Shown here: positions 27,588 to 55,820 of the stretch, one piece after another | Layout of the letters: each line of letters starts with the position of its first letter | How positions within the stretch are numbered: the stretch's first letter is position 1 | Source: Phoronis australis | Lineage: Eukaryota; Animalia; Phoronida | DNA: 64,000 bases | Assembly: GCA_002633005.1 (NCBI GenBank) | Contig: NMRA01000287.1 | Span: 264,238-328,237 of the forward strand | Direction: 5' to 3' | Notes under the pieces: model-generated | Database searches by the model: none | The model's input: only the letters and a program-made list of their open reading frames with translations | Told to the model about the DNA's origin: nothing | Translations under genes and position numbers: made by a program

Positions 27588-28401
27588 TTTGATAGATTCT
27601 ACAGCACAGATGGAGGAGACTGGGCAAAAGTTAACATTATGCAAGCGCAGCCAATACTCCGTACGTACCTTCGTTACATGTACATATAGAATGTATTAAG
27701 GGTCTGATATACGGAGCGACTTTACGCAGTCTCTAGCTCCACAAAACCACGGTGACTAATGGTTTGCCAATCAAGCTTTATTTCAACTTTGATCGAAACA
27801 TTTTGCAACGTTTGACGGAATATCGCCATAAACAACAAACGACAAGAAATCATCTAGCACAAAATCTTAACAATAGGGTTTTAAGAGAAGTCAACATAAC
27901 AGAAAAAATACACCATCAACTATTTTTGAGTATTACCTGAACATTTGGAGGAATATCAACTAAGAGTAAATTAAAAAAAATGTTCTTAAAGCAAGGAACC
28001 ATTGAACGTCATACAAACGGAAAATGTCAGACATGTTAAACCATCCGGTTCAAGAAAAAGCAATGTTAGGTTTTTGAAACAATGTGCAGCTTGATCACCT
28101 TGCTGAACAATTTATTTTCTGCCTTCGTGACGTTTGCTGTACTGTTACTCGGTGGGACTGTCCCAATGAAAATTGGAACAGAGGTTGGCTCTTGTGTATG
28201 AAGCATTAACCGGTGGTGGAGATAGTCGCCTTCGCAAGAAACGCTGTCCACAGTATGATTGTGCTTGGAATATTTTTGCATCCAGCTGACACTACAAGAA
28301 GGGGTCAAAGCCATGTACGTTTAATAATAAATTTTTGACAAACTATGGTTTGAATCAGACCAACATACATGTAAGGCTTACGTGTGCTTTGCCAAGTATG
28401 C

Positions 28402-28651: not shown

Positions 28652-28708
<57 letters not shown>

Positions 28709-31700: not shown

Positions 31701-32367
31701 GCGACATATTCTTAACGCCTGATCCAATGTAATGGCTAACTCTTCAAAAAGTTTTCTTCTCGTTCTTTCATTGTCGTTACCTAATAACAATGCTTATAGT
31801 ATCATGCGGTCGTACATCTCAGAGGGGAACGCGCAGTCACGCGCTATCGCGTGCAGTTCAGTTAGGTAGTCGTCTATTGACCTACTGCCTTGACGTAAAG
31901 TGAGTAATTTATGTGTCTGGGCCACAACGTTTATCCGCGGTTTACAAACCCTGTAGGCTTTCCCAGTACCTTTGCTAGGTCTTCTTTGTCTGATTCTGCT
32001 TCCCATTCGAAAGAGTAAAATATATCATTCCCATATTCACCTATTGTTCTCAGAAGCAGAGCCACTTTGACTTTGTTCGCTGCATAGTCTCGGTTTGTGG
32101 CTGTAAAGAAAATTCCGAAATTCCTCCGAAATCTTTTCTATTGTTCCGGCAGGTTTTCACCCTGTTTCAAGGGTTCGGGCGATAGAAACTTATCCGACAT
32201 TCCTCACTCGGGCACCATGTAAATTGTTTGGGTGTCAGTGCAGTAGTCGCGACGATGTTGTCTCACATGTTCAACCGCTACTTAAATGTAACTGACCACC
32301 ATTGTGTCAAGAACCGGAAACTGTTTATTGTTGTGCTCCGATGAACAATACAATACGAACATATAAA
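28402..32367 (-). mobile_element. Ty3/Gypsy (Mag-like) LTR retrotransposon with both LTRs, inactivated
   Basis: LTRs 28402-28552 and 32218-32367; PBS TGGTGCCCGAGTGAGG (tRNA-Met-like); PPT; gag ATG at 32200; protease DLGA, RT VADDIL, integrase HASHQG/SDNTAQF/SNGKAESAVK; stops and frameshifts; RNase H largely missing. Confidence 0.95.
28652..28708. repeat. (CTAA)n microsatellite in Gypsy 3' UTR
   Basis: Direct inspection. Confidence 0.9.
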
Positions 32368-33203
32368 CTGCGATCACTACTGTGGAACCTACTTCACTTT
32401 TCCCAGCGCTTTCACTGCAATGTACATCAAAGAACACCGTGGGTTGGGCTAGCTTCTTAAACAGGTCAACTCTGTTCGAGGTTCATTTTAAAGTGAGGAT
32501 TATCAAAATCGCACGGGGGGAATTCCAGTGAACTGATGTCAATATAGGTTAATTACAGATGAAAACATTTTTGAGAACGACCAGTGGTTGAGCAAGGCTA
32601 GAAGTGGACAGAGTGACAGAGACTGTACGGGGATGGACAGTGACAAAGTTCATGTTAAAACATTATATCCAGCGTATCTCGAGCTCATATAAGGTATTTT
32701 CATCCATTGGACACACTGAATGATCTAAGATGTTGCATGGGCGCCCCTATATGCACCTACAGTGTGTTAACAATTTTACACTTAGTGATGAAGAATTTGA
32801 ATCTAAAAAGAAACCATAATTTTTATAAGCGTAGACATTTCTGAGTATAAACGCTTTAGCCTCAATACATTGGAATACAATCCAATGAGAAAATGCCGCG
32901 ACCGAATTGGCGGTCCACCAAAGATGAGGACATTAAGTGCATACTCCTTAGTTAAAGCACAATGAAATTACAAGTGCATTTCCACTTGTGACGGACGTGC
33001 AATCACAGAACATTCTGATTAACTGTGAAAAAATATTTAAATCAAGAAAAATAATTAATGAACCAATTTGTAGGTCTCTTTGAAACGTTTACTTGTATGT
33101 ATCAATTTTTGTCGAATCACTTTGCGTAGCGGAAGAAAATGTCATCAAAGGTATGTGACAGACGTACGCAGTGAATTTGATTTTTTTGAAATTTTAACTT
33201 TCC

Positions 33204-36200
33204 TTGCAATTTTCCGTGAATTGTGTAATGTGGTAACTTTTTGAATGGTATGGTGATATAGTGGAATGTTTAAGATATAAAACACATAAAAGATTTAAGG
33301 TCATCTGTATGAAATATCCAGTAGGCTTAATTATTGTAAGATGAGTAACTGTGACGGACGAACGTGACGTGTGCATTTCTTAAACGTAAACGTTACATTA
33401 TTGCAAAATTTGTAAGCCACATCCTTCCTGGTGGTGATTTAGTCAATTACTTAAATAAAACAAGGTCTTTTATGTTTAAATAACTTAAAAGTAAGTTATC
33501 GCCTGATTTAGCTCCTGGTTAATTAATTAGAACATTTACGACAAGGTCAACTTTTTACCTTATCTACTTTAAATAAACTAGCTAAAACATCTCAACTGTT
33601 CAAATAGATAAATGTTAAACTTTCTGTTTTGAGATATACATTCGGACGAAAATATATGTAACAGTCCTAAATGTCTAATCTGCAACTCGTTGGAAAACTG
33701 CTGTCTCAAAATTCTAACTTTCTGAACATGGAACTTAACCTTGATTAATAGAGAACGTTTTTTCAAGTGCTTATGGAACGTAGTGATTTCACTCTAACGG
33801 GCAATGAAAATGGTCCGCCACAATTCAAGATTACTGGACCATGAAATATACACGAATTGCGCTTCTCATCTGAATTATCTCTGCGAGGCTAGTCAAACAG
33901 CTCACTACTCAGAGAATGAAGAATCTTAAACTGAACAAATTCGTTTTCAACAGATATTGCTCTACCTACATAAAACTCATTTTATGTAATCCACAGCATA
34001 ATACTTTTCCACGTAAATTGTTCCACTGAAAATTTCCAATGTCTGTTTCATGTGGAGTTCAAAAAACAATGACTTGTCGATATTTTCTAATGTCCTCAGT
34101 GTGCACCAGTGGGGTGGGTAGTGAAAGTGTACGTGTATATAACAATACGCAAACTCCGCAGTGACATGAGTTTGGCTGCCGTGGAACATCATGCCTGTCA
34201 TTCGAAATACAGTTCCATTCTTTCACGTCATACTTCATGCATGAAAGGACATCAAGCATCTTGGATATGGTTTTCTGCTGAGTTGGCTTAACAAAATCCC
34301 CTGCTTTACTGTCGAGCACAACTATGTACTTGTGTCTGGTGAAACACACAGAAAGAATCAATGACCGCTGCCATTGGGATTACATGGTACAAAAAGCACC
34401 TTTTTCAAATTTCCAAGCGGATCTTCAGATAGGTTATAAGTACTGCATCTCTCAAAATTTCGCAAATGTACAAGCAATGTTACAGTTTTCTGCAATTATC
34501 CTGAGATACTCATCAATAACAAAGTTTGACAACCACTTCCCTTGTAGTGTGTTGCTATCCCCAATGGGGACAACACCATGAACGATAGCAGAAACCAACT
34601 CCTGATGTTCAGCCAGTTTAAACGGCATTTGCGGTTGAATCTTTTCAATGACACATTTGGAACACTGGGTAGAATCATCTTAACACTTCACAAAAAGACT
34701 CAAACATTGCATCTTCAGGCAATTCTCGTATTTGTACAAGGTTGTCCTCAGGGGAATCAGACCTGTCAGCTACGAGGAGAGGACATGACACAACCCCGAC
34801 GCACTAACAAAGTGCGTCTTCCGAGTGTGAGGAACCGCTAGCACACCTTCCCATGACTTCATAAGCATTTCATGTACATCATGAATAATACCGTCACCGT
34901 TAAATTGAATACTTATTCCCGGATTTCTCTCTCTCTCTCGCTACGTCTGGATACTGCCCTGGGTTTTTACGGTACATTTTCCAGTTTTGATAGCACTCCA
35001 AACAGTTCTTTCCACAGTTGCACCCAATCCATCAACAAGGCCATTGCCATGGGAGGTGGCAAAGAAGTGCCAATTTATGTTCGCGTTAAAACGACTCTCC
35101 CATTGAAGAAGGTTTGAGAATGACTATCTTTGCTTGAATTGTGAAGTAGCGCTTTCACACAAGATGTTCATTTCTTTTATTAGAGGGTATTTCTCTTTCC
35201 CCTTACCCAAAATGGCAGTGAGGAAAATGTACACACTTTGCTTAGGATGACTGACATTATCTAAGACTATGACAAAGTTCATGCGAAGTTGTTCACTTAT
35301 CCAAGTATGTGCAGTGAAAAGAGACACTTTTGCATGGCTCCAATGGGCAGCTTGAACTTCATATTTTGAATGATTGTCGCGTTCTCCGACAAATCAACCT
35401 GAATTGCAACTTCTTTACCATTGCAAGGTGCCACAAGGCAGTCCAATTTTCTGGCTTGTCTTCTTTTAATATAAGTATGGATGAGAAAGTTTTTCAAACT
35501 TTTCTTCAATTCCAAAAATACATCCATCACTGTACCAATAATATTGACCTTCTCCGCAAACTGCCATTGCTGATAACGAACTGGCACATTCCGAACCTCT
35601 CTACTTGAATTTACTGTGCCAGTGAATGGAGCACATTTTTCACATTTGCAGAACATACAGTCTTTGCACTCCTCATCACATGTCACCTGCCAGATAAAAT
35701 TATGAAATGTGCTAGACAACAAAGTTTAAACATGCAAAGCTTCCAGAAACAGGCGCACATTTTTGTGGTATGAGCAGACGCAGATGTTGTGCGGAATTTT
35801 GTCAAATAATTTCACACATTTTGGTCAGAGTTCACAAAAATTTACTTAGTCCAATCTGTAACCCGTGATACATTTCAGAGAATATATGAAAGACTTCTGA
35901 GAATGACATGAGCATGTACCGAGTTTGTTCAGTTATCTTCCCTTTTTACTGCTTCCATCTTTTTCTCGGATGATAATCCTATCTTTTCTTCCAGGAGCTT
36001 GCCATGATATATCATTCCTTACTTTATAACCAAGCTTTTAGTTTCTTCACTGATTGCCCTAGCTGTATGTTCCATAGTTTTTTTCTTCACATCCAGTCCT
36101 AACTGTTTTGCTACCTCCCTCACTGCATACCTTCTTTTTCTGGGCGAAAACAGTAACGATGCTTGGGCTATCTTTACTACTTTTTCTTTCGCTTGTTTGG

Positions 36201-36810
36201 ATTTAAATGGTAATATTTCTGCATCTTGGGTTGTTTTACCGATTTTAAAACACTCCTATACTTCCTGATTCTTAGCTTCTCTTTAAACTTCAATTTCTTT
36301 ATTTCAAGTTTCGTGCCTTGGCTCTCGCAGCTGATTTCCAAGTTTTCCCTTCTTTTCTGCTGTCTCTCTTTAGCAGAAGCCATTTTAGCAGGTGAGTCCC
36401 AAGGTACAAACTAAAGTATCCCAAAGTAATAAGCATATTTGGAACTCAAGTGTTATAACTCTATTTGATGTTCTTCAGTAAGTTGGAAAGGGATTTCGCT
36501 AGAAAAATTTTAATTTTTTTGGACAAAATTCAAGCTTAAGATTTATGTGTCTGCATAAAATCAGTTATGTTGTTCAGTTCTTATCATTCACTTGTCAGTA
36601 ACAAGAATTCAAGATACACTCAAAAATCTAGAACAATTTTAGAGGTCAAGTGACCTCCAAAACTACAAGTGTGTGGCCAAAATTTGTTTTTGAAAATTCA
36701 AATACTGTTCCCGAAATTAGAAGGATTGGTCTTTCAGATGAGAACAAAATCATAAAGATAGCTGCAATTTCGATTTATGTCTAGAGGTTGACCTTTTCAC
36801 GGAATTGCTC
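33204..36810 (-). mobile_element. Degenerate Sola2-like DNA transposon with C-terminal Ulp1/C48 peptidase
   Basis: End GAGCAATTCCGTGAA (36810, - strand) with a degraded counterpart at ~33204; motifs ICVCSYHKN, QVDLSEN, WHFFATSHGNGLVDGLGATVER; Ulp1-like KWLSNFVIDEYL and VVLDS..PRQPNSCHCGV. Confidence 0.72.
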
Positions 36811-36912
36811 ACAGATAAAATTCTCATTTCTCAATTGTATAAACAATTATGGCGACATCATCAAAATGTTTAGAAGTACCCACAGAACAGTTCATCGGGA
36901 AAATTGACATAC

Positions 36913-36948
36913 CTCCACCATCTCCATTTCTAGTTGGCGTACTGGTGT
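36913..36948 (-). CDS. Gene B 36-nt stalk micro-exon (DTSTPTRNGDGG)
   Basis: tttcAG|...GGAG|GTATGT, phase 1-1. Confidence 0.6.
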
Positions 36949-37446
36949 CTGAAATCATAATTTAATTTCAAAATAAAAGTTGTAAGTGGGAGTTGCTGAA
37001 CGAGACAAATAAAAACCCAAGGATCAAAATGTTACTGGCGTACTGTCTACCTAATATTACTGGCGTATTGTCTACCTAATATTACTGGCGTACTGTCTAC
37101 CTAATATTACTGGCGTATTGTCTACCTAATATTACTGGCATATTGTCTGCCTAATAATGCTGGCGTATTATCTACCTAAGGCTCATCTCTAATCTCATTG
37201 TAAGTGGACAAAGTTAATTTCATGTTAGAAGAACATTGACATACTCTATCTCCAAAATCTCCATTTCCAGTAGGCTTAGTTGTATCTACAAATCATAATT
37301 TAGTTTCACAATTAGTATTTTGTCTGTAAGTGAATGTTGTTGCAAGAGACAAATAAAACTCAAGGAGGCAAAAGTTAATGGAGTATTGTCTACCTAATGC
37401 TCAGATTTAATGTGATCACTGAATTTAGAGAAAAATATTGACATAC

Positions 37447-37482
37447 CTCCACCATCTCCATTTCCAGTTGGCTTAGTGGTAT
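37447..37482 (-). CDS. Gene B 36-nt stalk micro-exon (DTTKPTGNGDGG)
   Basis: ttctAG|...GGAG|GTATGT, phase 1-1. Confidence 0.6.
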
Positions 37483-37644
37483 CTAGAAATCATAATTTAG
37501 TTTCACAATTAATACTTTTTCTGTAAGAGAGAATTGTTGATAGAGACAAATAAAAACTCAAGAAGGCAAAAGTTATTGGAGTATTGTCTACCTAATGCTC
37601 AGATTTAATGTGATCACTGAATTTAGAGAAAAATATTGACATAC

Positions 37645-37680
37645 CTCCACCATCTCCATTTCTAGTTGGCTTACTGGTGT
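37645..37680 (-). CDS. Gene B 36-nt stalk micro-exon (DTSKPTRNGDGG)
   Basis: tttcAG|...GGAG|GTATGT, phase 1-1. Confidence 0.6.
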
Positions 37681-38177
37681 CTGAAATCATAATTTAATTT
37701 CAAAATAAAAATTGTAAGTGAGAGTCGCTGAACGAGACAAATAAAGACCCAAGGATCAAAATGTTACTGGCGTACTGTCTACCTAATATTACTAGCGTAT
37801 TGTCTACCTAATATTACTTGCATAATGTCTGCCTAATGTTACTGGCGTATTGTCTACCTAATGTTACAAGCGTATTGTCTACCTAATGTTACTGGCGTAT
37901 TGTCTACCTAAAGCTCAGCTCTAATCTCATTGTAAGGGAACAAAGTTAATTTCATGTTAGAGGAAGATTGACATACTCTATCTCCAAAATTTCCATTTTC
38001 AGTTGGCTTAGTTGTATCTCCAAATCATAATTTAGTTTCACAATTAGTATTTTGTCTGTACCTGAATGTTGTTGCAAGAGACAAATAAAACTCAAGGAGG
38101 AAAAATTATTGGAGTATTGTCTACCTAATGCTCAGATTTAATGTGATCACTGAATTTAGAGAAAAATATTGACACAC

Positions 38178-38213
38178 CCCCACCATCTCCATTTCCAGTT
38201 GGCTTAGTGGTAT
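38178..38213 (-). CDS. Gene B 36-nt stalk micro-exon (DTTKPTGNGDGG), weaker donor
   Basis: ttatAG|...GGGG|GTGTGT, phase 1-1. Confidence 0.5.
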
Positions 38214-38568
38214 CTATAAATCATAATTTAGTTTCATAATTAGTATTTTTTCTGTAAGAGAGAATTGGTGATAGAGACAAATAAAAACTCAAGAAGGCAA
38301 AAGTTACTGGAGTATTGCTTACCTAATGCTCAGATTTAATATGATCTCCGAATTTAGAAAAAAAATTGACATACCCCCACCATATCCATTTCCGGTTGGC
38401 TTAGTGGTATTTAAAAATCACAATTTAGTTTCATAATTAGTATTATTCTGTAAGTGAGAGTTGCTGATAGAGACAAATAAAACTCAAGGAAGCAAGTTAC
38501 TGGAGTATTGTCTACCTAATGCTCAGATTTAATGTGATCACTGAATTTAGAGAAAAATATTGACATAC

Positions 38569-38604
38569 CTCCACCATCTCCATTTCCAGTTGGCTTAGTG
38601 GTAT
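38569..38604 (-). CDS. Gene B 36-nt stalk micro-exon (DTTKPTGNGDGG)
   Basis: ttatAG|...GGAG|GTATGT, phase 1-1. Confidence 0.6.
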
Positions 38605-40610
38605 CTATAAATCACAAGTATATTTATCTGTAAGTACATGTAAGACTTGGTGCTCGAGACAAAGACCCGAGTGGCCAAAATTTGCTGCGTGTACGTGTAC
38701 ACCTACACAATAAAACCCATGGGATGGCTATTTTTTCCAGTTTGTACGTGACTGAGGGAAGTGAAACCGAAATTTGGTGACGAAAGCATTCAGCAAATGT
38801 TTTGAGTCGTTACAAACAGGGGATCGCAGCAGTCTGCTGTATTTCATTCACATTGATGAACTTTTCAAAATTCTTCTAGATGAAAGATTTTGTCAAATAT
38901 TTGATCGATACTGAATAAAAGATAATCGCGTATTTCAATTCTTTGTATGTTTGATTATGCACCAACCAGGTATTTAATGCCCGCCATAGAGAGGGAAGTT
39001 TGTCCTCATGCTATGTAGGAAAATATTTTGCAATAGACCTCAAAAATGTGTATTATACAAGAATAGCGGACAATACGCTGGCGGAGTCCAGTGGGCTTTT
39101 ATGTGGGATTTTCTTTTTTCTAGGAAATTAAATTGACAGAAGATGAAATGAAATTGTGATTTCATGTCGTAAAGGAAATCAAGGTAAGCACATCGGAGTG
39201 AACACTTCCGTAAATATCGGTTACCTCTGCGTCTTTCATTGTTTGTCTACCGTGGTTCATTGCCATGATTGTTGTATGTATTTTTGCGACGAACGATACC
39301 CTTTGTTTAAGATGATGTACCTCTTACATTTCCTCACTAAATAATGTTTTCAAGCCGCAGAAGCTCTTGACCTGGTTATATAAAAAGATCAACACTTGAT
39401 TTGGATGTCATTATACTGGCGGCAAATTCGCACTGCTGTTCGGTGGGGTTTATTATTACGTCATGCATGAGGTCAACGCATGAACAAATGGATCATGGCA
39501 GTTCTTACATACATTTCTCGCAGAGAAGAATTACCTGCTGATAAAGCCAGTGACTGCAGCTCATAAAACGTGAAAATTTCGATCCCAACCGGTCTAACAT
39601 GAATAAATTAGTGAATTAAAACTAATTAAGCATTGGGAGCGGAAGACATCGGAATTTTGATCTCCTGGCGTTAAATTGACGAACCACTGTCAGTGTGGTA
39701 ATTGAATTTATGTCCACCAAAATCTGAGTCCGGGTGAATTGGAAGTCATTTTCTCATTACTCTAGAGAGTGTCATTGTGAAAAGTCCTCCATTATAATAG
39801 ACCTGTGCACTCTAGACTAGGTCTGATAGTAAACCTTCTCCAACATCTCGTTGCTCCTTTGGCCTAAGGCAGACACTCGTTAAAACATCACTGAAACCTG
39901 CCACTGTGAGACGTTCACACACACCTACTCAGGAACAAACATCGAAACATATTTTAACTCTTCCCTTGGAATGCAGCAGGTAACCATTATCAATTACGAA
40001 CGTTAGTATATTTTTTATTGAAACGAGTTTCCCACATTTACAGACCATGAGTTTGACTGGCCAGACGATGTGTGTGACTTGGTTGCAGCGGAACCTCTCG
40101 GATTCTAAAAGTAAGCCATTACAGCAACTTGCATGGCTGAGTAAAAGTATACCCAAACACAGCTACAGTATATGATGATCAAGCAAAACATGTGAACTTT
40201 ATTTAAGAAAAACTCCTACTCAAAATACTACAGTTACATGTATGTTCGGTGGGTTTCCCGACATTGATAACGTGCAAGTGAAGGGACAGTAGGCAAAGGT
40301 AAACGACTCTGATAGCTGAAATTCCACTTAACGACACAAGTAGTGTGAAAAATTGATAAAAACAAGTTGAAGAAATTCACCGGTACCCAGGCCGGTGCCT
40401 GGAGGTGGGTTATAATACACTGTACGTGCGATCATGCACAATATGAGTTTGCAAACTTGTGAACAAGAATTAGGAACATACACGTTCAATTTCATCAGAA
40501 TTCTCCAGGCATCACAGTAAATGGGTACGTCCCAAAATGAGGTCAGATGTACTGTGTATTTCCGATGGAAACGCTTATAGAAAAATAGCCGAAGATCAAT
40601 GAAAAAAACT

Positions 40611-43481
40611 GTTAAAGTACACATGCTCTCAACGGGATGGCATTTTTGGAACTACATCTCTATTCATTTACTCTCATGCTGCCTCACCGAATTATGCCCG
40701 AGTGTGGTGCGGTCTTTTTAGTCGAGATGCATCAGCTTCCACAGTCTGTTTGGTCAGAGGTTCAAGCGGGAAATTTTGTAGTCAAGCGATCTTCTCATAT
40801 GCTCTGTCAGGTAGATTCTGACCAATGGGTAAATGGGGCAAGCAAAACGGAGGTGGCATCATCGGTAATACCAAAACCACGTCAGCTCTATGGAGGTGGA
40901 CACTCTCATTGCATCTGAGATATCATATAGCTGAACAAACTTACCGCTGTGGGAGTACATAGTTTCACAACGAAGCCACGAAAGCCAGGAAACTGTGCGG
41001 AAATTATGTCGAGAGTTCCCGTTTTTACACTTTCCATGAATTGAAGGTCTTCTCGTCCGCAAGGCCTTAGCTGCTACAAACCCTTTCAACAAAAGACCTA
41101 GAGCAACAGCACCAATCCAAGAGTAACTTTTGCATACCAATGAACATGGACACGGGGACACTAACAAATTAAGAATTTTTTTCAAGACAGATTATCATTG
41201 AGCAATGCGATAATTCAGACATGTCAATTCATGCACCTATGCGCAAAAATAATGTCCCAACATTTGCCAACTTATATGATGTGGTGAAACAAACCAAAGA
41301 TAAAGATAAAGATAAGAAAATAGTTCTTAAGGCAGACAGAGATGCACTTGGCTGTCTAGCTACGGCTTATGAGGCGGGTCGGTCAGTTGATTTGCCGTCT
41401 GTGCTCAAACGCGAGCTTCTTCCAGTCCATGTTGTCTTGCAGAAACGAGTGGCACATTGCGCACTGGATATAAATCTTCACTTGTCGAAGTATTAATAGC
41501 TACCACATCGACTGTCCTGAAACAATTCAGCTTCATGACACGTCCGCTTGCCTCATTATTGATATTGAAGCATTGCTGGTAACTCTTGGGAAGCGTGATG
41601 GTGATGTGACCTTCGAAAATCTGGCTGATTCATTCATGAAAACAGTGCTAAACACAGGATTTCGATATCATAAAATTGATATTGTATTAGACAGATACAG
41701 ACAAGAAACAATGAAGGACACAACAAGAAAACAGCGCAGTAAAGGAACACGGCAAATCAGGTCATTTTTGGAAGGCCGTGATGTACCTCTTCCTCAAAAC
41801 TGGTCAAATTTTTGGCTGAGAATAAAGCTGAACTAGCACATTTCTTGTCAGAGGAACTGTGTTTGTAGACACCTGAAGATAAAGAGGTTATGGTTGCAGG
41901 AGGTTAAAAGATGAGCTGGAAGTCAAATCATCCAAGGATATGACTGATTTGAGGACTCTGAAATTCACACATGACGAAGCAGATGCAAGACTGGTACTGC
42001 ATGCTGTCCACAGTCAGCCGTGTTTTCCAGGGACACCCGATGTTCTACTGCTTCTGGTATCGCACTTCCAATAAATGCAATGTGAGCGTATCTGACTGAT
42101 GTCATATATACCTATTGCAGCACTTTTCAACAAACTACTACGAGACTCAGCAACATCCTTGTTTGCTTTTCATGCCGTCACCGGGTTTGGCACCAACTCG
42201 TACTTTNCTCGAAAACTGAGTACGTGCTCGAAATTTCGAGTACAGATTTTTCGAGTATGACATTAAATACACCAAAGCTGAGTCTGTACTCGAGTTGAGT
42301 ATGAAGTGTGAGTTTGAGCATGATTCGAGTCTGAGTACGGAGATTGGAGACCGGGCCCAGAACAGACCTGTAGATGTAGCACGCCATTTACTATTCTCCA
42401 AGCCCGTGAACCCAGAAGTCCTTCACCACAACGCACAATGCCTGCCGTTTCCATCTGATGATAGTGCACTATCAGGTCAAGGTATGGCAAAATGATCATT
42501 GTTACATACCTGAGCTCCCAGTATCCTCTGATATGGGAGGGGCACACACAAACTTATGCTTGCAGCCCATGCTAATGACACAGAGTAAAATCCCAGATAG
42601 CTTCCTAGAGATGGTATTGTGTGCATGTCAGAAACAACGCAACAGTAGAAAATGCAGATGCAAGAAATCTGGATTTCGATGCATATCATTATGCACATGC
42701 CAGCAGCACATTCATGATCAGATTCCTTGTATGCAAACAGTTTGATATGCCTGACTTCAGGCATGTTAAAAAGTACCAAAAAGGGAACACTAAAACTGTG
42801 TTCAACAGGCCTGAAAACAATTCATGCAACAGAAAATCTAATGTCCTCAATAACAATAACTAAATTGTTTTTTATGAATGGAAGATAACGGGATAATGTG
42901 AACATTTGTATATTCCGTCAAAATAGTGTCACCTTGCTTAACGAGCATTGCAAATTAACGACTATTTTTTCCTCATTATGTAAGTATACATCTATAACCC
43001 AATAAATATGAAATAAATTTCTCCAAAAATGTCTTTAGCATGTTTGTTGACCATGAAAATATATATATTAACACCTCATTTTACAAGTTAGCCTGCAGGA
43101 GCACAAACTTATGACTCAAATTACATTTTATGGTAATGGCGGCACCTAATTTGCATAATTAGTTTTTAGAAATGCATTTTTTAGTTTTCATAAGTGATCT
43201 ATGGCTCAAGAAGTATTTATAAGAAGTGTACAGGTGAGACTTTTCACCATTTTAAATGGTATATTGTGATTTCTATTACAAAAATACATCTGAACTTGAC
43301 AATTTGGCCGCCATTTTGTTTATGCTAATTAGATGGTCAAAAATGCAAAATTAGGCTTGGGAACAGGGTTACTTGAATTCGCCATGCCTTGATTGTCTGA
43401 AAAAGTCTTGTTCCCAACTTTTACTAAAAAATGCTTCTAGAACCTTATACAGGGCTCTTTTCAAGAAATGCGTCTAGACTA
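40611..43481 (+). mobile_element. 3' half of an Academ-type DNA transposon (XPG/PIN-like nuclease plus CXC zinc finger), degenerate
   Basis: LKADRD, IDIVLDRY...K...R, HDEADARLVLHA, LLAFHA.TG, CAC...CRCKKSGFRCISLCTC; terminus ...CGTCTAGACTA. Confidence 0.8.
42181..42360. mobile_element. MITE fragment (…CCGGGCCCAG end) inserted in Academ
   Basis: CTCGAG/GAGTAC-rich self-complementary segment interrupting the Academ coding remnant. Confidence 0.5.
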
Positions 43482-44602
43482 ATAGAAAAATAGCCGAAGA
43501 TCAATGAAAAAAACTTGATAGAAATGAGACACAACAAAAACGCTGGCCATTAAGGGGCATCACAGTTGATGAACCCGTCCGAAAATCAACATCAGATGTA
43601 ATCATCTTGATTGGAATGCAACTATGATATTTCACGATGGTCCTTCGAGCGGTATGGATAAGAGAGGCGTACAACACAAAAGACACGGACGCAATAAAAA
43701 TGTCCCACGGGTTAATAAAACAAGCAGAGTTAACCTGAGTATGGTTAGTTGTGGTAATCGGTAGAAAAATACTTCTTGAATTCAATAAAATTCGGTCATT
43801 TTAAAACGCACGATTATAAGGATCTTTGAATATGTCGTTCAAGAAACATGGGAAATATATTGATGAAAACTTTACTAGATGTTGTCAATAACACGTCACG
43901 AAATTTTTTCAAAGAAGTGCAGTGGTCTTGAAAAGTGCTGGACGATGAGTCAAACACTGGATTAAGTGACCAATAAAATGTATGCTTAACCTTGCTGAGC
44001 AATGTATAATCTTAAGTTTAATCGTCAAATTTTGAGAAATGCCTTTTATCCATGTGACTAAGTACATGTAGAAAGAGAAGACTGAAAGACGGGAAAGTGG
44101 AGAACACTTAAATACAAAATTTTTACGCCTTCAAAATTTTAAAATAAAATTCGACAATCAAAAATTTTAATACCATGTGATTAAAGTACTATATTGTATT
44201 GTGTCTTCGTTACTCTAAGTAATATTTTCGGAGTATGAATGCTTTTAATGAAGTAAAAATCAACACGGGAGAGTAACAGCCTTTCAGAGTAAAGGTCCTT
44301 CAGCACATGTAACATTTGGAATTATAGCTCGATTCTATTCTAATTTTGAAATATCCAAATGGCTTGAACAGGCCTAAAAGTAACACATTTGGCTCATTTT
44401 ATTGATGGAAGCGACCACAAGACTGCTCATTAGGAACAATTAATTCGTAAGAGATTTGCAGTTATAACAAGAACTCTACAGGTGTTGAAAAAAATGTTGT
44501 TAAGACTTGTCGGGCGTATTTTCTAGCCAACACTCAGCCCTAATATCACCAGTTATATACTGTACAACGTTAATTCCATATTAGACGAAAACATTGGCAT
44601 AC

Positions 44603-44638
44603 CTCCACGTTTTCCGTTTCCAGTTGGCTGATTGGTAC
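44603..44638 (-). CDS. Gene B 36-nt stalk micro-exon (GTNQPTGNGKRG), diverged outlier
   Basis: ttacAG|...GGAG|GTATGC, phase 1-1; flanking intron similar to the array unit. Confidence 0.62.
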
Positions 44639-46293
44639 CTGTAAACCATAATTTAGTTTTACAATAAACATTGCTGTCTATAAATGAAAGTTGTTCTGAC
44701 AACAATGAAAGATGCGAGTGGCGAAACATACTGAGTACGTACAAGTACAAAATAAAACGTACATGTATGGGATGTCTACTGCTTCCAATTTGCTCTTATG
44801 TTAGAGAAGTACCGTTTTTAGAATCGTTGCCACAAAGGAATTCCCCATTTTTACTATCAAAAACAACGTTTTTGTAGCCTGGCGCTTCCACAAAACTGGA
44901 CTTCCACACGTCCTCTCTTGTTTCCTAAGCTGTTATTCGACTCCAAATTCGAGGGCATTGTTATCTCGTGATTCAACTTAATTAGATTAAACAACAACAG
45001 TGATCCAGCCTCCAACTCTCAGCTCTGGGACCGAGGAGGCATGTCTTTTCTTCAGACACAGGTTTCCTTTGACGGCGCACTCAGAGTTAGCACACTATAA
45101 CGACTCGCTCTTCTTTCTTTTGGAACCACAATGGTTGATTTCTGGCAACTTTTGACGTGGCTTCACCTGAGAACACTTGCGACATTCTCTGGCCAGGTAT
45201 CCAGCTTCGTGGCAGAAGCACAATTTTCTCTGTAAGATCAGTTTTTTCTGGTCGACCATCATGCTATCTGTCTTGACTGGTTGTTCTAGGGACCTTTCAT
45301 TGACGAATTAGTGCTCTTGATAGCCACGCAATGGGCCTCAACAAACATCAAGCTCACTATCTCTGATACAGACCTGGGTGTCGGATGAGTAGACCTGTTT
45401 ACTTACTGTTGTCGGACCAACAGGTCTCTCAACTCAGCGAAATCTTTGCTGCGGTGGGTTACTGATAAGCAATCATGTCTCCTTCAGCACTCGCCTCCCG
45501 GAACTGTCTGCAAAAAACCTCCCCAGTCAGTTCATACCACTTGAACAAGTCCCTTTGGAATGTATCAGAGTCCAATGCATCGGCCATTGGCGGCGGGTGT
45601 AAAGTTGTAAGCCTTCGTCTGTTAACAGGGGAACTAAACTAGTTGCCCATCACTTGGGCCCAACCCTGGCTCTCGGCATTTTCCTCCAAATCGTTCCAGG
45701 AAGTTATCCATATCGCCCCAATTTTCATCAAATTCAGGCTGCTTCGATTTGACAACATCAGTTGCCCTCACAATGTTACCCTTAGCTGCACCCTGCCAAG
45801 CTTTCAGCGCTTCTTGCTTACTCTCGAATTCCATTCTTTTTTCTCCATCTAATCTCCGTCTTCGAGGGCTTACCTTCTCTCCTGTGTCTCACAAGCTGGC
45901 ATATCTCGGGCTTCCTGTCTTTTCTGTCCACAGAATGTTTCAAATTGTCACCCTACAGACCTATTTCTTGTCCGAGGACCACCGATTCGATTAGTTGTGA
46001 TCTTATCTCCAAGGTGAGTCGCTAATTCCGTCCGTGAACGCTTGGGTGCTCGTCAAGTGTCACGATTTTCCCATGGGTGGGTGGCCGCAGGTTGTTACTG
46101 ACCGGGGATAATAGGCATCGGTGCGATGATAGACCGAATACTGCTTCGAATTAATCACTTTATTAACCTCGACCGTAAGTTCACAAATCTACTCAAACAA
46201 AACGTCCGACGTAATGTCCGTATTGTGCTGCGAAGTCTTGACTGGAGTTGAGCTTCTGCAACTAGTTGATTTAATAACCTCCTGTCTCCTTAA

Positions 46294-47630
46294 AGAGTTC
46301 CCACCATGACCCTGTGTCTCAAAAAGGAATTTTATTATTACATCTTAACAGATTTAATAGCCTTTAGTACACCTGTTGCTACGAAACAATCTAAAAATTT
46401 TAAAAATATATTTTTCTGTTATCGAGTGTGTACGCAATGGGTGGAAGACCGCCTCAGCCGTTGTTGTTTTACCAGTGCGATACTGAGGAGTGAAGAAAGT
46501 CCGCGTGGAGCCGTCTTTTTCAGACATGAAAAGGTGCGTTTGTGGAAACTGTGGTAACAACAACTTGACTGTGAACGTCATAGTGTTCAAATTTCCTAAA
46601 TACGTGAAAGTTGCACAAAATTGGCATCGGTTTGTCATGGGCGGCGCACCATAGGGGCCTAGGGTAGGGCTATAGCCCCCACTTTTTCAGGGCTAAGCCG
46701 CCCATGGTTTATAGGCGATGTAACACAGGAGGGCTGGGGGGGGGGGGGGGTTNGGGGGGGGGGGGGGGGGGGGGGGGGTTAGCCCCCACTTTTTTCAGTG
46801 CTGCGCCACCCATGATTGTGCGTCGAACAAGAGTGTGGAGTGTCAGTGTGGAATATGAGATTCAGTTTGGCGTAAGCCACACTTTGATCGTCACATTTCA
46901 AAGAATCGTGTTTCGACCACACACATCAGCGGGGTTACAATGAATGACTCACCACCAAGTAAGTGCATGTGAAAATTTTGTAAATAACGAACAAACTGCT
47001 TCCATTCTAGGGCGAGTGATGCCAGGCCCTGGACCCTGGCCCAGATCAAGTGCTACTACAAGTAGGCTTACATGTATGCATATTGTGTTTAGACTGTGCT
47101 CATTCCATCACGGCAATAGTGAATACGAGTAACCCAGGTTGGCTGTGGCTTTTGTCAGTAATTATTAAGTGTCTATTTTGTGAGTTGTGACCACCACTTG
47201 GTAGAGTTGTTTGTGGCTCACATATGTCATTTCTCGTGCAAGTGGGTCGAGTTCATACGGCCTGAAACCCGACGAAAGTTCGCTAAATGGGAAATCGAAT
47301 TCATTGTCTGATTCTTCAAGTACTTGAGTATAAGTGCCAGTATCCACTCTCCTCTCTGTCTGCATAATAATTGTCCAATTCTCGCCTAATATTGTCATTG
47401 TCTTCTGACCTGCGGTGTTCCGACATTGCAAATGATTGTCAAGCAGCCAACCGTCTTCCACCCATTGCATCATTTGGCGGGAAACTTAGAAATAAGTAAT
47501 TTTTCTTCAAAATTAAAAAAGTTGGCACTATTTGGCATAAAAAGTGCCTATTTAGCAAGATTGTATGGTATTCAATTCATATTACCTAACTGAAACCTGA
47601 AATAGTAAGAAAATGCATGGTGGGAACTCT
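46294..47630 (+). mobile_element. Non-autonomous Kolobok (second family): THAP remnant on +, KolX-like remnant on -
   Basis: TTAA|AGAGTTCCCACCATG...CATGGTGGGAACTCT|TTAA (perfect 15-bp TIR); MKRCVCGNC..FKFPK..WHRFV|RRTRVW from 46526; FRPYELDPLAR on - strand. Confidence 0.88.
46636..46814. mobile_element. MITE with CATGGG(C/T)GGCGCA TIRs and 5-bp TSD (TTTGT/ATTGT) inside the THAP ORF
   Basis: Removing it restores the THAP reading frame HRFVRRTR. Confidence 0.8.
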
Positions 47631-47894
47631 TTAACTAACTATCTATTTAGTAACGATATAACTCCTGATTCTGTAACAGCTACCCGACTGTAACATTAAC
47701 TCGGCTCGACTTCAACATACTTAACTCCAACTTCAATTGGATTTAATTGACTTTAAATTACCTGTCATTAACCGTGCCTTGATAGTCTCTTACAATGTTC
47801 TGGAACTTTTAACCAATTCAAGCATATTTTAGAACTTTCCGGAATCTACATAATCATTCTGCAAACCTAGACTGTAGAATGTTTCGGACTATGG

Positions 47895-48193
47895 CAGTGG
47901 GGATCTACAGGGGGGAGGGGTTCAGGGGGTTTAAACCCCCCCTCGGGCCAGGACCCAAAAATTAAAAAAAAAACGTCTCCAGCAAAACAAAAACGGCACC
48001 GCCAGGGTTAGTAAACCCCAAGTAAACCAACTTGGAAAAAAGGAGGAGGTGTTCATTCCGAAAATATATGTTTTGCATTGTGAATTGCTGTTATGAAAAT
48101 CAACGCATTTTGAGTCTTCGTGGCTCATCAGCAAAACCCCGCTTCCGTCGACACTTCTGAAGTAGCCAAGCTTTTTAGATGGATCCACCGCTG
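47895..48193. mobile_element. MITE (CAGTGG.GGATC...GGATCCACCGCTG)
   Basis: Terminal inverted repeats of the same type as 6294-6451. Confidence 0.6.
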
Positions 48194-49021
48194 AAGAGCA
48201 GCTCTATAGATGATTTCTTTAGGTAACTACTTTCTTTACTCTAAGATATGTTTTGATTTGATTAGGGGAAAATACTGTGGTGCCGCAACCATGATTCAGG
48301 CGAATTGACGTGCAACGTTTTTACCTCATCTGTCATGCCGTGTCATACTATTACACCCCACACGTTTGTAACTCGAATTTGACAGGTGTATAGTAAAGTT
48401 GTCTTGCGCAACATCATACGGTGTACATGTACATGTACATGTAATACTTTTGAAAAAAAATCGTTTAACGAAGAATTGCTATTGTGGCGGGCGCCGTGGT
48501 CTGGTCGCGAGTCTGTTTGAAGATGCACTCTAACAAGTTATGTCTATACGAGGAATGACCAAGGGGGCACTCACATTGACAAAGTGACCGCATTCGCGAA
48601 CAGTGTAGGCTACAGTACCAGAAATTGCGGGGAGGCTGTATTTTCACAACAAAGTCTTGCGGGACTCGTGCGATGTTCAATAGGCCTCCTAAGGAGCCCT
48701 TGTTCCGACCTCAATACCTACCGTCTTTCTACCTGCAATAAGCACCACTGCCGTTTTCTATACTGGGAATTTCCGCAGAAAGGCCCACCCGACGAAACGC
48801 CCATGCCCATGGGCATTTATTTGATGTTAGTACTTCGGGTTTCAAGCGTTCAGACATTGGGACGTTTATTTAGAAAATTGCAAGAGATGCAAATGGGTCC
48901 TGGCCCCTGGGATACATCGTCAAGGTCTGGAGTAGTTCACGATGAACGGTTCAAATTTAGTTGCGCGTGCTGTAAGTCTTTGGAATGGATTTGGTAATCT
49001 CGGGGGGCTTAGTGCCAACTG

Positions 49022-49172
49022 AGCNATCCGCTGGATAGTTATCCGAACCTTATCCAAGCTTTGTGCAACCCAAATTTATACGCCGGATAACTATCCGGCG
49101 TATAAATCTTATCCGGCGTATAAGCTCTTATCCGCTGGATAGTTATACAGACTTTTATGCAACCGGGCCCAG
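49022..49172. mobile_element. Palindromic MITE fragment (ATCCG/CGGAT repeats; ends TGCAACCGGGCCCAG)
   Basis: Near-perfect hairpin TTTATACGCCGGATA-AC-TATCCGGCGTATAAA. Confidence 0.6.
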
Positions 49173-50808
49173 ATGTATGTGTAAACTACACGTATGAGCA
49201 ACCACTGGGGATTAAAAAGTGTCTAGAGAGAAGTTTTCAATTCAAAGCTTTTTGTAAAGTACGCTTTAGGTCTCGCGACGAACCAGGCCAGCTTGATTTG
49301 TGTATATGTCCAGTTTCAGTGTACTTCTGGTCCCTCGGCGAACTATCTAGTCTTGTGATGTTTTTACCAAAGTGTGCTTTGTAAAACTATTTATCTCAGC
49401 CAGTACTGTTTGGTCCCGCGACAGATCGACTATTTTTATAGAGATAATAAGCATAGGTGTACTTTTGGTCTCGTGACGGACCAGGCCGGAGTTTTTGTGT
49501 ACTCTCAGTGTACATCTGATCCCTCTGCAAACTGCTCTTGTATATCTTTTCACCAAGGTATATAGAATGTTATGGTTTCGTGAAACTGTTTTCAGATGAT
49601 TTGTTTCCTGATACATTTTACGTTTTTTCAATTGTTGTCAACGTGATTCAGCGTAATAAAGTGATACTTAATTATTTATTGTCGCTTTTAATAATAGACT
49701 ATGAGCTGAGAGCACCATCGTTCGCCAGTTTTTCTCGTAAAGAGACAGAACACATGTTTATTTCCGAACTAACAGTACAGGCCTTCGTTCTTAAACAACT
49801 TGAGGCTGCTGTTACACGATCATCTGATATTCAAGTTTTTACACCCCTTCGGTGCTCCTTATGCTCTTGAATATTTGGTAGTTGTCTCAGCCCCTGTATA
49901 CACACCACACTTTTTCGTATACTAAAAAGGTGTGCGTAAACAGGTGTTCAAACAAAAATTTTTGCCGGTGGTGGGACTCATACCCAGATGTGGACAAATA
50001 TGGTTTCACGAAACTTATGAGCCAAGTTCATGTGACGAAATCGAGAAGGGTTTTTAATTATCTTAAGAAAAACTCCAGAGACATCAGTGTTAAGTGCCAG
50101 AAACGTACCAGGATGCATGGAAATTTCACTGTTTGGCTGCAAAAACAAAAAGTTGTCTTACACAACCCCCCTCCCCGACCTCCCCCCCGCCCGCTCGGCG
50201 CCACGCGCTTCGGATTCGACCTTTGCGGGAATCCTAAGCCCCCCCTTACTGAAAACGTAGATCCGCCACTGTATGGTTCTATATTAATCACTAGTAAGTA
50301 AACTGGACTGGTCTAGAATCTTGTCTATTATTCTAATATAAATTATATCATCACTGGTTTGACATAATGGATCATGTCTATCAAGTGCTACGTGCTATCT
50401 GCAAGTAAACTTAACAGTGTTAGTCTACTTCATACAAAAAGCAAATAAAACTAAAAAATATGAAGAATCCGACAAAACTCGACGATTTTAAGGACCGTTT
50501 TTGACCTTGACATGCTGGTTTCGACCTAAGATTCTAAATGTTGACCTGGTTTGGAAGTCAAAATTACTTACATGGAACTTTTTCCTTGTGTCAAAGGCTG
50601 CGTTACGTACGTATATACGAAAGCTGGAAAAATCTTACTATTTCGCACTGCCTACACTTAAGAAAATACAATACAATGCAGGCCAGTAGCCACCGTTGTG
50701 CAGAGGGTTGTTCGAATTACTAAACAGGTGCAAGTTTTGGTCTGTTCCTGTGTCACACTCTTGTCCCCAGTGCTAAGAAACTTTCAATGTCAACTCACTT
50801 ATAATTTT

Positions 50809-51521
50809 TATCTCGTTTTTCCCCGTGTGTGGGTGGGCGCAGGTTGTTACAGACCGGTGCTAATAGCTTTCGGTGCGATGATAGACTGAAGACTGGTTCG
50901 AGTTAATCCTTTATTAATCCCGACCGTACGTTCACAAGCCTACTCAAACAAAACGTCTGACGTAATGTCTGTTTATGCTCCAGCCAGTGCTGAGAAGCCT
51001 AGACTTGTGATGAACTTCTGGGACACGTTCAGCAACTGTTACACTCGTCGATTCAATAACCTGCTGTCTGTATAGCTGGCTCTCTATTGACTATCGCTGT
51101 AACTGCTGATTCTCTTCACTGCAACTCAACTGTAATTCCCCTGATTAACTTTCTTGAACTTCCGGTGAACTGGTTTAATCTTTCATGAACTGACTTGATC
51201 TGACTAACACAAACCCGTGCTAGTGTATTTATAGCCTAATGCATGGTTCTAGAACTTTTCATCAATTCATCGACAAGCACATTCACAGTTTTCCTGAATC
51301 TACCCAATCATTCTACAAACACATACTAGTCTCTAGAATATTCCAGACTGCATCAATCACTGTCATACTAGAGTCTTCTAGAAAGTTCCACACTATACTG
51401 TAGTAAACAAATAACATCATCACTGTACTTAACTCAGGGGTCATGCCAATCAAACAGAATAACAAAACAATACAATACAATACAACTAAAACTACTGTCA
51501 GACTATATTCTGACAGGGACA
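50809..51521 (-). mobile_element. Solo LTR related to the LTR at 46058-47890
   Basis: Clear similarity of 50809-51060 to 46058-46290 and of 51220-51350 to 47770-47880; right boundary approximate. Confidence 0.7.
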
Positions 51522-52127
51522 TTGAATTGACGGTTGTGATGTGCGGTGCCATAACGGAAAGTTTAATGGCAATGTTGCAACTGGTCATAACAAGGTAAAT
51601 AGTGGTTTTATGCACATTAACACTGTTAGTAAATAAAGCGTCCAGTAATCGTCTGCACGAACCTGTCATCCACCCAATCACATCGCCACTTGGCGAAGTT
51701 CGCCGGATACGGCGCTAAGTGATTACATAGGCAAAATCAAACGTAGTTTCAACTTGATTGTTATTGTAGTTAGTAATACCAATACACGGGCGGCTCACCA
51801 TAGGGGACTGGGGGGCTATAGCCCCCACTGTTTTCAGTGCTACGCCACACATAGGCTATAGGAGGCGCACCACGGGGGGCTGAAGGAGCTTGACCCCCCA
51901 ATTGTCTCTGTGCTGCGTTGCCTATGCAATAATAACTGCAACACTTGTGGTGTTGGTGCTGCTCATCTCTATCCCATTCAAAACGGATGTGCTAGGGCTA
52001 AACTTTTTGCGAGGGGAGTTCGATCGAACCCGGCTACGGGACTGCAAAACAATATTTTGTTCAACACAACTCGACTTAAATTGCATCAACTGAGCACTGT
52101 ACAGTAACTGATACCCGATTAATTCAT

Positions 52128-52401
52128 AATGTTGCCTAATGCTTAGCGTTGCCTACTGCATAGTGTTGACTAATACATAGTGTTGCCTAATGCACAGTGT
52201 TGCCTAATGCATAGTGTTGCCTAATGCATAGTGTTGCCTAATGCATAGTGTTGACTAATGCATAGTGTTGCCTAATGCATAGTGTTGCCTAATGCATAGT
52301 GTTGCCTAATGCAGAGTGTTGCCTAATGCATAGTGTTGCCTAATGCATAGTGATGCCTAATGCATACACATGTAGTGTTGCTTAATGCACAGTGTTGCCT
52401 A
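52128..52401. repeat. 17-bp minisatellite (TGCATAGTGTTGCCTAA)n
   Basis: About 15 copies next to the donor of the Ig C2 exon. Confidence 0.92.
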
Positions 52402-52442
52402 AAATAGGCAAAGTATTTTAACACAACTTAATCGTAACTTAC

Positions 52443-52766
52443 CAGTCACCTTAATGGTCGCCGTTTCAGCTGAGTAAGTAGCTTGCCTGTTGGACACTTG
52501 ACATCTGAACTGTACACCGTTGTCAGTTAGATTCAAGTTGACAGTCAGTGTGCTGGTGCCGCTGGTAGATCCATCGGTATTGTTGGTGGTACCTGACTTA
52601 ACATTACCGGCTATGTTTGTGAACTCCGCGTTGCCAGTCCGACGTGACCACACCATAGATGCTTGTGGTCTGCCCAAGTTGGCTGTGCAGGTTAGGTTAG
52701 TCGGTCCTGCTCCTCCCAGTACAGGCTCAGTCGGGGCACCAGATATAGAAGGTCTACTTGGGAGGA
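52443..52766 (-). CDS. Gene B exon: Ig C2/I-set-like domain
   Basis: PSRPSISG..TNLTCTANLGRPQASMVWSR..STLTVNLNLTDNGVQFRCQVSN; tctccAG acceptor, G|GTAAGT donor; 324 nt, phase 1-1. Confidence 0.92.
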
Positions 52767-55454: not shown

Positions 55455-55820
55455 GGTCCACAAAAATCTTGGTGTATGAATTTGCCGGTTCGCCTCTGGA
55501 AAGACCCACATACACTCTGTACAGGTTTTCATCACTAGCTGTAAGTTTTGACAAAGTCATGGTAAAGTCAGTCTTCTCTTCAGAGTAGTCAGTAGAAGCA
55601 CGTGACTTATAGACGCCAAAAAACTTGCCCTTAGGTTTCCAGGTGTCGCCTTCGATTAAAGGGGCTTGAAACACACGGACTTCATCTGATATCTGCACCT
55701 TTATCGCATTCATATCTTCGCCACTCCCCAGTGTATAATTTATCCTGAACGTAACTTCTCCACCCTTCACACCAACGACTTCACTTGGTGACGTCACAGT
55801 GACGGCAGAAGCAACACCAT
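55455..55820 (-). CDS. Gene B exon: N-terminal Ig V-like domain lacking cysteines, preceded by the end of a signal peptide
   Basis: GVASA|VTVTSPSEVVGVKGGEVTFRINY..YKSRAS..FTMTLSKLTASDENLYRVYV; tttcAG acceptor, C|GTAAGT donor; 366 nt, phase 1-1. Confidence 0.88.

What the first reader, a model, noticed from the sequence alone, without database searches (positions are those of the whole stretch)
36904..44660. Satellite that is really an array of amplified 36-nt cassette micro-exons encoding a variable stalk of an Ig receptor
Seen in sequence: every ~200-bp unit of the tandem repeat carries, on the - strand, AG|36 nt|GTATGT. The exons are in phase 1-1 and encode DT(T/S)(K/T)PT(G/R)NGDGG. Five array copies are intact (36913, 37447, 37645, 38178, 38569). 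A diverged paralogue (GTNQPTGNGKRG) sits alone at 44603-44638. All lie downstream of, on the same strand as, and in the same phase as the Ig C2 exon. Inference: because the exons are symmetric, any subset can be included. This would give a T/P/G-rich spacer adjustable in 12-aa steps, both by alternative splicing and by allelic copy-number change through unequal crossover. Gene predictors and repeat masking would miss it entirely.
Basis: partly seen in the sequence, partly recalled or inferred. Interest (0 to 1): 0.85.

Follow-up and report, generated by a model that had tools for sequence, protein, structure and literature searches.

The report
Repeat-encoded stalk of GPI-anchored Ig protein
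A stretch that looks like repetitive junk DNA in an animal genome holds tiny exons that are spliced into the RNA of an immunoglobulin-type gene, where they would build the flexible stalk of a likely lipid-anchored cell-surface protein; they appear to be used as a mostly fixed chain, so stalk length likely changes through DNA duplication and splice-site decay more than through alternative splicing.

Summary
The micro-exons are real. That exon has no membrane span or cytoplasmic tail but reads like a GPI-anchor signal. The product is therefore a likely GPI-anchored V–C2 Ig protein with a stalk of up to 60 residues, not a signalling receptor. Reads cover only the four array copies with YAG|36 nt|GTATG. 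The claimed intact copy at 38178 has donor GTGTGT and no reads. Junction counts along the array chain are flat, and no skipping joint is listed, so 'any subset' splicing is unsupported. Minor skipping is not excluded, and the solo-to-chain ratio differs between runs. Reads also reveal related genes or alleles with other stalk exons. The mechanism, an exon duplicated with its flanking introns, is known from SmPoMuc, IGHG3 hinge and chicken BG genes. The family itself has no named relative in my searches. Verdict: new variant of a known kind; interest 0.45.

The parts
55455..55820 (-). V-type Ig exon, 366 nt, phase 1-1, no cysteine; begins with what looks like the end of a signal peptide (leader exon not found)
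   Evidence: Pfam V-set E 8.5e-5, below cut-off; joint to C2 in 45 and 37 reads; Cys list
52443..52766 (-). C2-type Ig exon, 324 nt, phase 1-1, one Cys pair, three N-glycosylation sequons
   Evidence: Pfam C2-set_2 33.3 bits, cut-off 21; joints
44603..44638 (-). Solo 36-nt micro-exon; older member of the same repeat unit (flanks ~73% like the B units)
   Evidence: C2 to solo joint in 48 and 23 reads; blastn. Its joint to the array is not among the 15 of 68 joints shown
38569..38604 (-). Micro-exon A1 (identical to A3), used (inferred: an A-type exon precedes S1)
38375..38410 (-). Dead copy: acceptor AG changed to AA
   Evidence: depth 0
38178..38213 (-). Copy A2, donor GTGTGT, not seen in reads
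   Evidence: depth 0 in both runs
37982..38017 (-). Copy B1: GAG acceptor, donor shifted 5 nt; essentially unused
   Evidence: bin depth 0.51 and 0
37645..37680 (-). Micro-exon S1, used
   Evidence: A to S1 23 and 33 reads; S1 to A 26 and 33 reads
37447..37482 (-). Micro-exon A3, used (inferred: an A-type exon lies between S1 and S2)
37250..37285 (-). Copy B2: donor shifted 5 nt; unused
   Evidence: depth 0
36913..36948 (-). Micro-exon S2, last stalk exon, used
   Evidence: A to S2 31 and 40 reads; loose end into terminal exon 31 and 33 reads
28206..28291 (-). Coding part of the terminal exon: small residues, ~7-residue polar spacer, short hydrophobic tail, stop; predicted GPI-anchor signal. 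AATAAA at 28116 and 27782
   Evidence: 30-nt loose-end consensus matches 28262-28291 exactly and only there; translation and hydropathy
36895..38620 (.). Tandem array of ~197-bp units (exon plus flanking intron) with two 25-bp minisatellite blocks and a ~732-bp higher-order duplication

Best explanation
The repeat is a block of tandemly duplicated 36-nt exons, each copied with its flanking intron, that are spliced into the mRNA of a V–C2 immunoglobulin-superfamily gene and would encode a Thr/Gly/Pro-rich flexible stalk above a predicted GPI anchor. Shown: transcription from the - strand and the joints V-C2, C2-solo, A-S1, S1-A, A-S2 and S2-terminal exon. Inferred: the main mRNA is V-C2-solo-A1-S1-A3-S2-terminal, with 5 x 12 = 60 stalk residues; the stalk is O-glycosylated and holds the V domain away from the membrane for adhesion or recognition. 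Also inferred: unequal crossover adds units, point changes at splice sites switch single copies off without breaking the frame (4 of 8 here), and so each allele or paralogue carries a largely fixed stalk length. Diversity lies mainly between genes and alleles.
For: Joints in two stranded runs. The only copies with YAG|36|GTATG in the array and the solo are exactly those with reads. Chain counts are flat within each run: 23, 26, 31, 31 (p 0.64) and 33, 33, 40, 33 (p 0.79). No S-to-S joint among the 8 joints listed, none hidden; 95% upper bound about 12-18%. The terminal exon has the four-part layout of a GPI signal described in PMC5054108 (passages) and no 19-residue hydrophobic span (mean hydropathy 1.2). 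Reads show diverged C2 ends joined directly to array-like exons (21+24 and 25+10 reads), an exon type 3 mismatches from every window copy, and diverged terminal exons after A-like exons (agreement 0.65-0.75).
Against: A1 and A3 are identical, so a skip from A1 straight to S2 is invisible; A-S2 exceeds A-S1 by 8 and 7 reads, which leaves room for a minor isoform lacking 24 residues. C2-solo versus chain counts differ between runs (48:111 and 23:139, Fisher p 0.0007), which alleles, paralogues or splicing could each cause. The solo-to-array joint was not displayed. Neither lay held both the solo or C2 exon and the terminal exon, so skipping of the whole array is untested. About 18-19% of each run was read, the RNA is probably from other individuals than the assembly, and only two runs of one study cover the gene. 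The hydrophobic tail is short and holds one Lys; no GPI predictor was run. The exons are not more conserved than the downstream intron flank, and the S exons differ from A1 only at replacement sites, so selection on the peptide is not shown.
Confidence: 0.65

Rival explanations
1. The exons are true cassettes and one gene makes several stalk lengths by regulated alternative splicing.
For: All exons are symmetric phase 1-1. Between-run difference in C2-solo versus chain counts. Skips between identical copies cannot be seen. In X1, C2-solo (48) exceeds every chain joint (23-31).
Against: No S-to-S joint; flat chain counts; A-to-A joints (26, 12) fall on sites where about half the reads carry letters not in this window, so they are best assigned to relatives. 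Copies with weaker splice sites are not partly used but silent.
Confidence: 0.25
2. Same exons, but the product is secreted or only loosely membrane-bound because the last exon is not a working GPI signal.
For: Hydrophobic core of only ~9-11 residues (2.4 over 9, 1.8 over 11) with a Lys and a polar end; signal-peptide exon not found.
Against: Small-residue / spacer / hydrophobic-tail / stop layout. The mixed consensus of the relatives' terminal exons appears to keep the same Ser-Ala-Gly triplet (read by hand; weak).
Confidence: 0.08
3. The array is a non-genic satellite with chance splice motifs.
For: Exon portion not more conserved than the downstream flank. Genome-wide dispersal could not be checked (no genome).
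Against: Read depth is confined to the 36-nt exons, on one strand, with GT-AG joints and a link to the terminal exon.
Confidence: 0.01

Closest known systems
Schistosoma mansoni polymorphic mucins SmPoMuc (PMC2576457, passages)
   Same: A short exon (27 bp) repeated together with its flanking introns as genomic tandem units; multigene family with different repeat numbers (1-20 genomic repeats) and some repeat types never transcribed.
   Different: Units ~1 kb versus ~197 bp; no Ig domains there; repeats follow the signal peptide instead of forming a stalk above an anchor; repeat number in SmPoMuc transcripts is highly variable, not shown here. No homology claimed.
Human IGHG3 hinge exons (PMC12926203, passages)
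   Same: Small duplicated spacer exons next to Ig domains; copy number 2-4, changed by a 188-bp indel, almost the unit size here; length fixed per allele.
   Different: Antibody hinge between constant domains; allelic copy-number variation is proven there and untested here. Hinge being Cys-rich is recalled, not from a call.
Chicken BG genes (PMC4046983, passages)
   Same: V-domain Ig multigene family in which paralogues differ in the number of tiny exons (13-36), with expansion and contraction.
   Different: 21-nt heptad exons build a cytoplasmic coiled coil behind a membrane span; here 36-nt exons build an extracellular stalk.
CD46/MCP STP exons (PMC2118878, abstract)
   Same: Ser/Thr/Pro-rich membrane-proximal spacer segment of 15 residues on its own exon.
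   Different: There the length is set by alternative splicing; here such splicing is not shown. SCR domains and a membrane span, not Ig and GPI.
CD48 / GPI-form CD58 of the CD2-SLAM family (PMC12506779, passages)
   Same: V plus C2 ectodomain on a GPI anchor. A V domain without the canonical disulfide is typical of CD2 and CEACAM proteins (recalled).
   Different: No sequence link: no CD2-family chain among the 8 PDB hits for V, nor among the 60 of 208 shown for C2; no long exon-built stalk in CD48 (recalled). Resemblance of architecture only.
Schistosome micro-exon genes (bioRxiv 10.1101/2023.06.21.545858, passages)
   Same: Very short exons missed by annotation.
   Different: MEGs consist of 10-20 micro-exons and vary mainly by alternative splicing; here micro-exons give about 60 of ~320 residues and are near-identical tandem copies.

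Membership tests
Immunoglobulin superfamily (V + C2) | C2-set domain above Pfam cut-off with Cys pair | tested here: met
   PF08205 33.3 bits vs 21; two Cys
Immunoglobulin superfamily (V + C2) | V-set domain | tested here: inconclusive
   PF07686 E 8.5e-5 but 23.1 bits vs cut-off 26; single-sequence model pLDDT 52.5, Foldseek best E 0.01, listed hits V-type domains; no Cys
GPI-anchored proteins | C-terminal small residues, ~7-residue spacer, hydrophobic tail, no cytoplasmic tail | tested here: met
   By inspection and hydropathy against the layout in PMC5054108; no predictor run; tail short
GPI-anchored proteins | N-terminal signal peptide | tested here: inconclusive
   No convincing leader exon in 55830-64000; reads laid only to 56300
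GPI-anchored proteins | Glycolipid attached (PI-PLC release) | not testable with these tools
   bench test
Type I signalling Ig receptor | Membrane span and cytoplasmic tail | tested here: not met
   Exon after S2 stops after 27 full codons; best 19-residue hydropathy 1.2. An alternative last exon was not seen but was not excluded
CD2/SLAM family | Sequence relationship to CD2-family chains | tested here: not met
   None among 8 hits for V or the 60 of 208 hits shown for C2
CD2/SLAM family | V-C2 ectodomain | tested here: met
SmPoMuc-type exon-bearing tandem repeat | Exon repeated with flanking introns as the genomic unit | tested here: met
SmPoMuc-type exon-bearing tandem repeat | Variable repeat number among transcripts, genes and individuals | tested here: inconclusive
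   Other exon types and junctions in reads; cannot be assigned to allele or paralogue; no counts per molecule
Micro-exon genes (MEG) | Coding sequence made mostly of 10-20 micro-exons | tested here: not met
   5 micro-exons beside two full Ig exons
Micro-exon genes (MEG) | Diversity by alternative splicing of central exons | tested here: inconclusive
   No skipping joint listed, flat counts, but blind to skips between identical copies
IGHG3-hinge-type allelic exon copy number | Alleles differ in unit number | not testable with these tools
   No genome; only RNA runs listed

The most novel reading that the evidence does not exclude
An undescribed, fast-evolving invertebrate-type family of GPI-anchored V–C2 recognition or adhesion proteins whose height above the membrane is tuned in 12-residue steps at three levels at once: paralogue, allele (repeat gain, loss and splice-site switching) and sample-dependent exon skipping, giving each individual or cell type its own set of stalk lengths.
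Probability: 0.15. Interest if true: 0.75.

Novelty: new variant of a known kind. Interest (0 to 1): 0.45.

Why it matters
It is an RNA-verified case of coding exons hidden in a tandem repeat that masking would likely hide. It also shows tandem exon birth and death at work: which of eight near-identical copies is used follows single-base changes at splice sites. The gene belongs to a family with no named relative in the searches run here, and family members appear to differ in their stalk exons. That makes the effect of stalk length on cell-surface recognition directly testable in a non-model animal. The genomic mechanism itself is known (SmPoMuc, IGHG3 hinge, BG), which caps the surprise.

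Tried and rejected
No genome is held, so dispersal of the unit and the paralogues' DNA could not be examined. The run index listed no RNA holder (no evidence either way); the four runs came by species label. Word-based homologue searches with C2, V and the neighbour's EPTP exon, longer proteins only, found nothing. The full HMMER search with V gave 3 hits: two unrelated repeat proteins and P0003, an unnamed 146-residue Cys-less V-like protein, 31% identical over 107 residues. Metagenome scans with a unit pattern and with V were empty. The Atlas gave no result. The organism stays unidentified. Membrane-span candidates from a hydropathy scan and a span-like stretch seen by eye near 22555 were dropped once reads pointed to 28291. 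A leader-like ORF at 61809-61776 was rejected because it lies between two 157-bp direct repeats. The selection test (exon versus flank) was uninformative. The single-sequence fold was too weak to use. Four paper searches listed no description of such a family; I saw listings only, and most subscription papers are not held. Earlier-findings look-ups by place, by sequence and by the first word set were empty. No supplements were read.

Full report
Observation. A mismatch scan found nine copies of the 36-nt motif, all on the - strand: one at 44638-44603 (solo) and eight in a ~197-bp tandem repeat between 38604 and 36913. I name them A1 38604, psi 38410, A2 38213, B1 38017, S1 37680, A3 37482, B2 37285, S2 36948. 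A1 and A3 are identical; S1 and S2 differ at one base. Only A1, S1, A3, S2 and the solo have YAG|36|GTATG (the sixth match, at 56106, is unrelated). psi has lost its AG, A2 has GTGTGT, and B1 and B2 have the donor 5 nt further on. The array contains a ~732-bp higher-order duplication, 658 of 704 bases identical. The solo's flanks align with the B units at ~73% over 188 bases, so it is an older unit now 6 kb away. The bare motif occurs by chance about twice per shuffled strand, so it proves nothing alone.

Gene context. Upstream on the same strand are a V-like exon (55820-55455; Pfam V-set E 8.5e-5, below cut-off) and a C2 exon (52766-52443; above cut-off). Both are phase 1-1 like the micro-exons. 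V has no cysteine; C2 has one pair. No leader exon was found. No genome is held. The organism is an animal by inference (GT-AG introns, Ig and discoidin/EPTP exons) and was not identified.

RNA test. Four runs were listed by species label. I laid all four on 36400-56300 and the two with array signal, X1 and X2, on 36880-38680, at 90% likeness; about 18-19% of each raw run was read. Reads over the exons are stranded as expected for - strand RNA. Joints, X1 and X2: V-C2 45 and 37; C2-solo 48 and 23 (15 of 68 joints shown); A-S1 23 and 33; S1-A 26 and 33; A-S2 31 and 40; A-A 26 and 12; A-A with one unlaid exon between 5 and 5 (all 8 joints shown, summed over identical sites). Depth in the array is confined to A1/A3, S1 and S2; bins over psi, A2 and B2 are 0 in both runs, and over B1 0.51 and 0. 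X3 has C2-like depth (11.1) but none in the last V bin and almost none in the array; X4 adds nothing.

The end of the gene. Reads leaving S2 (31 and 33; agreement 1 and 0.92) continue with 30 letters that match 28262-28291 exactly and nowhere else in the window. This exon reads SAGCKNIPSTIILWTAFLAKATISTTG and stops; AATAAA follows at 28116 and 27782. Best hydropathy is 2.4 over 9 residues and 1.2 over 19: no membrane span, no tail. The layout of small residues, spacer and hydrophobic tail matches the GPI signal described in PMC5054108 (passages). A GPI anchor is therefore predicted, by inspection only.

Fixed or variable? Within each run the four chain joints are equal within noise (p 0.64 and 0.79), and no S-S joint is listed, which bounds skipping of A3 alone at about 12-18%. 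About half of the reads on the A sites carry a letter absent from A1 and A3 (94 of 162 in X1, 67 of 154 in X2 at 37454/38576); the rest, about 67 and 87, are roughly what two A exons per transcript need. The A-A joints therefore most likely come from relatives. Against a strictly fixed chain: an A1-to-S2 skip cannot be told from A3-S2, and A-S2 exceeds A-S1 by 8 and 7 reads. C2-solo versus chain is 48:111 in X1 and 23:139 in X2 (Fisher p 0.0007), and X1's six joints are not uniform (p 0.009). Alleles, close paralogues, mapping bias or real skipping could each explain this. Skipping of the whole array was not testable, because no lay held both ends.

Family. Reads show diverged C2 ends joined directly to array-like exons without a solo (21+24 and 25+10 reads), an exon type three mismatches from every window copy in front of part of the S1-like reads (22 and 31 reads), an S1 variant (19 of 52 and 33 of 75 reads), and diverged terminal exons after A-like exons (40-49 reads per row, agreement 0.65-0.75). 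Several related genes or alleles with their own stalk exons are thus expressed. Short reads cannot say how many exons each has.

Selection. Exon identity among array copies is 75-100%; the downstream flank is 58 of 58 identical among A1, A2, S1 and A3, and S exons differ from A1 by 2-3 replacement and no silent changes. The array is too young or too homogenised to show constraint on the peptide. The informative signal is the match between splice-site state and use.

Mechanism. Shown: splicing of the micro-exons into the V-C2 transcript and onto the terminal exon. Inferred: a 60-residue stalk (of the 55 residues coded wholly inside the five exons, 17 Gly, 13 Thr, 5 Pro), flexible and likely O-glycosylated, lifting the Ig domains off a GPI anchor; unit number changed by unequal crossover; single copies silenced by splice-site mutation, harmless because exons are symmetric. 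Role in adhesion or recognition is an inference from architecture.

Comparison. SmPoMuc has an exon repeated with its flanking introns in a multigene family (PMC2576457, passages). IGHG3 hinge exons vary 2-4 by a 188-bp indel (PMC12926203, passages). Chicken BG paralogues differ in tiny-exon number (PMC4046983, passages). CD46 varies its STP spacer by splicing (PMC2118878, abstract). CD48 and one CD58 form are GPI-anchored V-C2 proteins (PMC12506779, passages). MEGs are made mostly of micro-exons (10.1101/2023.06.21.545858, passages). The locus works like IGHG3 hinge or SmPoMuc arrays on a CD48-like frame and is a member of none: no CD2-family hit in PDB sequences, and the only full-domain relative among 1.84 billion representatives is one unnamed protein at 31%. 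Four paper searches listed no such family (listings only).

Verdict. The core observation holds and is RNA-verified; 'receptor' becomes a likely GPI-anchored surface protein, five intact copies become four, and combinatorial splicing is unsupported but not excluded at minor levels. New variant of a known kind, interest 0.45.

Noticed in passing
window 28402-32368: LTR retrotransposon (152-bp direct repeats, 91% identical; RT and integrase pieces, interrupted by stops) inside the last intron, ending about 110 bases before the terminal exon's acceptor; splicing across it is seen in reads.
   Followed up: partly
window 536-21917 (+): Convergent gene with several F5/8 type C (discoidin) exon pieces and a last EPTP-repeat exon; no homologue found by a word-based search.
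   Followed up: partly
window 37028-37179 and 37760-37911: 25-bp minisatellite (6 copies each) that is itself derived from a piece of the ~197-bp unit's intron and sits behind both B copies.
   Followed up: no
window 52120-52402: 17-bp tandem repeat (14.5 copies) starting about 40 bases into the intron after the C2 exon.
   Followed up: no
window 52634: 162 and 143 reads leave the C2 exon here into one common other sequence (agreement 0.93-0.94): an abundant relative that shares only part of C2; run X3 shows C2-like reads without this gene's V or stalk.
   Followed up: no
window 25900-27450 and 57685-59088 (-): Two decayed non-LTR (LINE-like) elements, 66% alike over 728 bases.
   Followed up: no
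window 34062-36400 (-): Decayed element with a Ulp1 (Peptidase_C48) piece and transposase-like fragments in the last intron.
   Followed up: no
window 5639-7911 and 12943-14532: Two inverted copies (70-77% alike) of an element with a THAP domain piece.
   Followed up: no
window 62690-63487 (+): 266-codon open frame with a coiled-coil stretch, resembling a retroelement ORF1 (recalled); no Pfam match of note.
   Followed up: no
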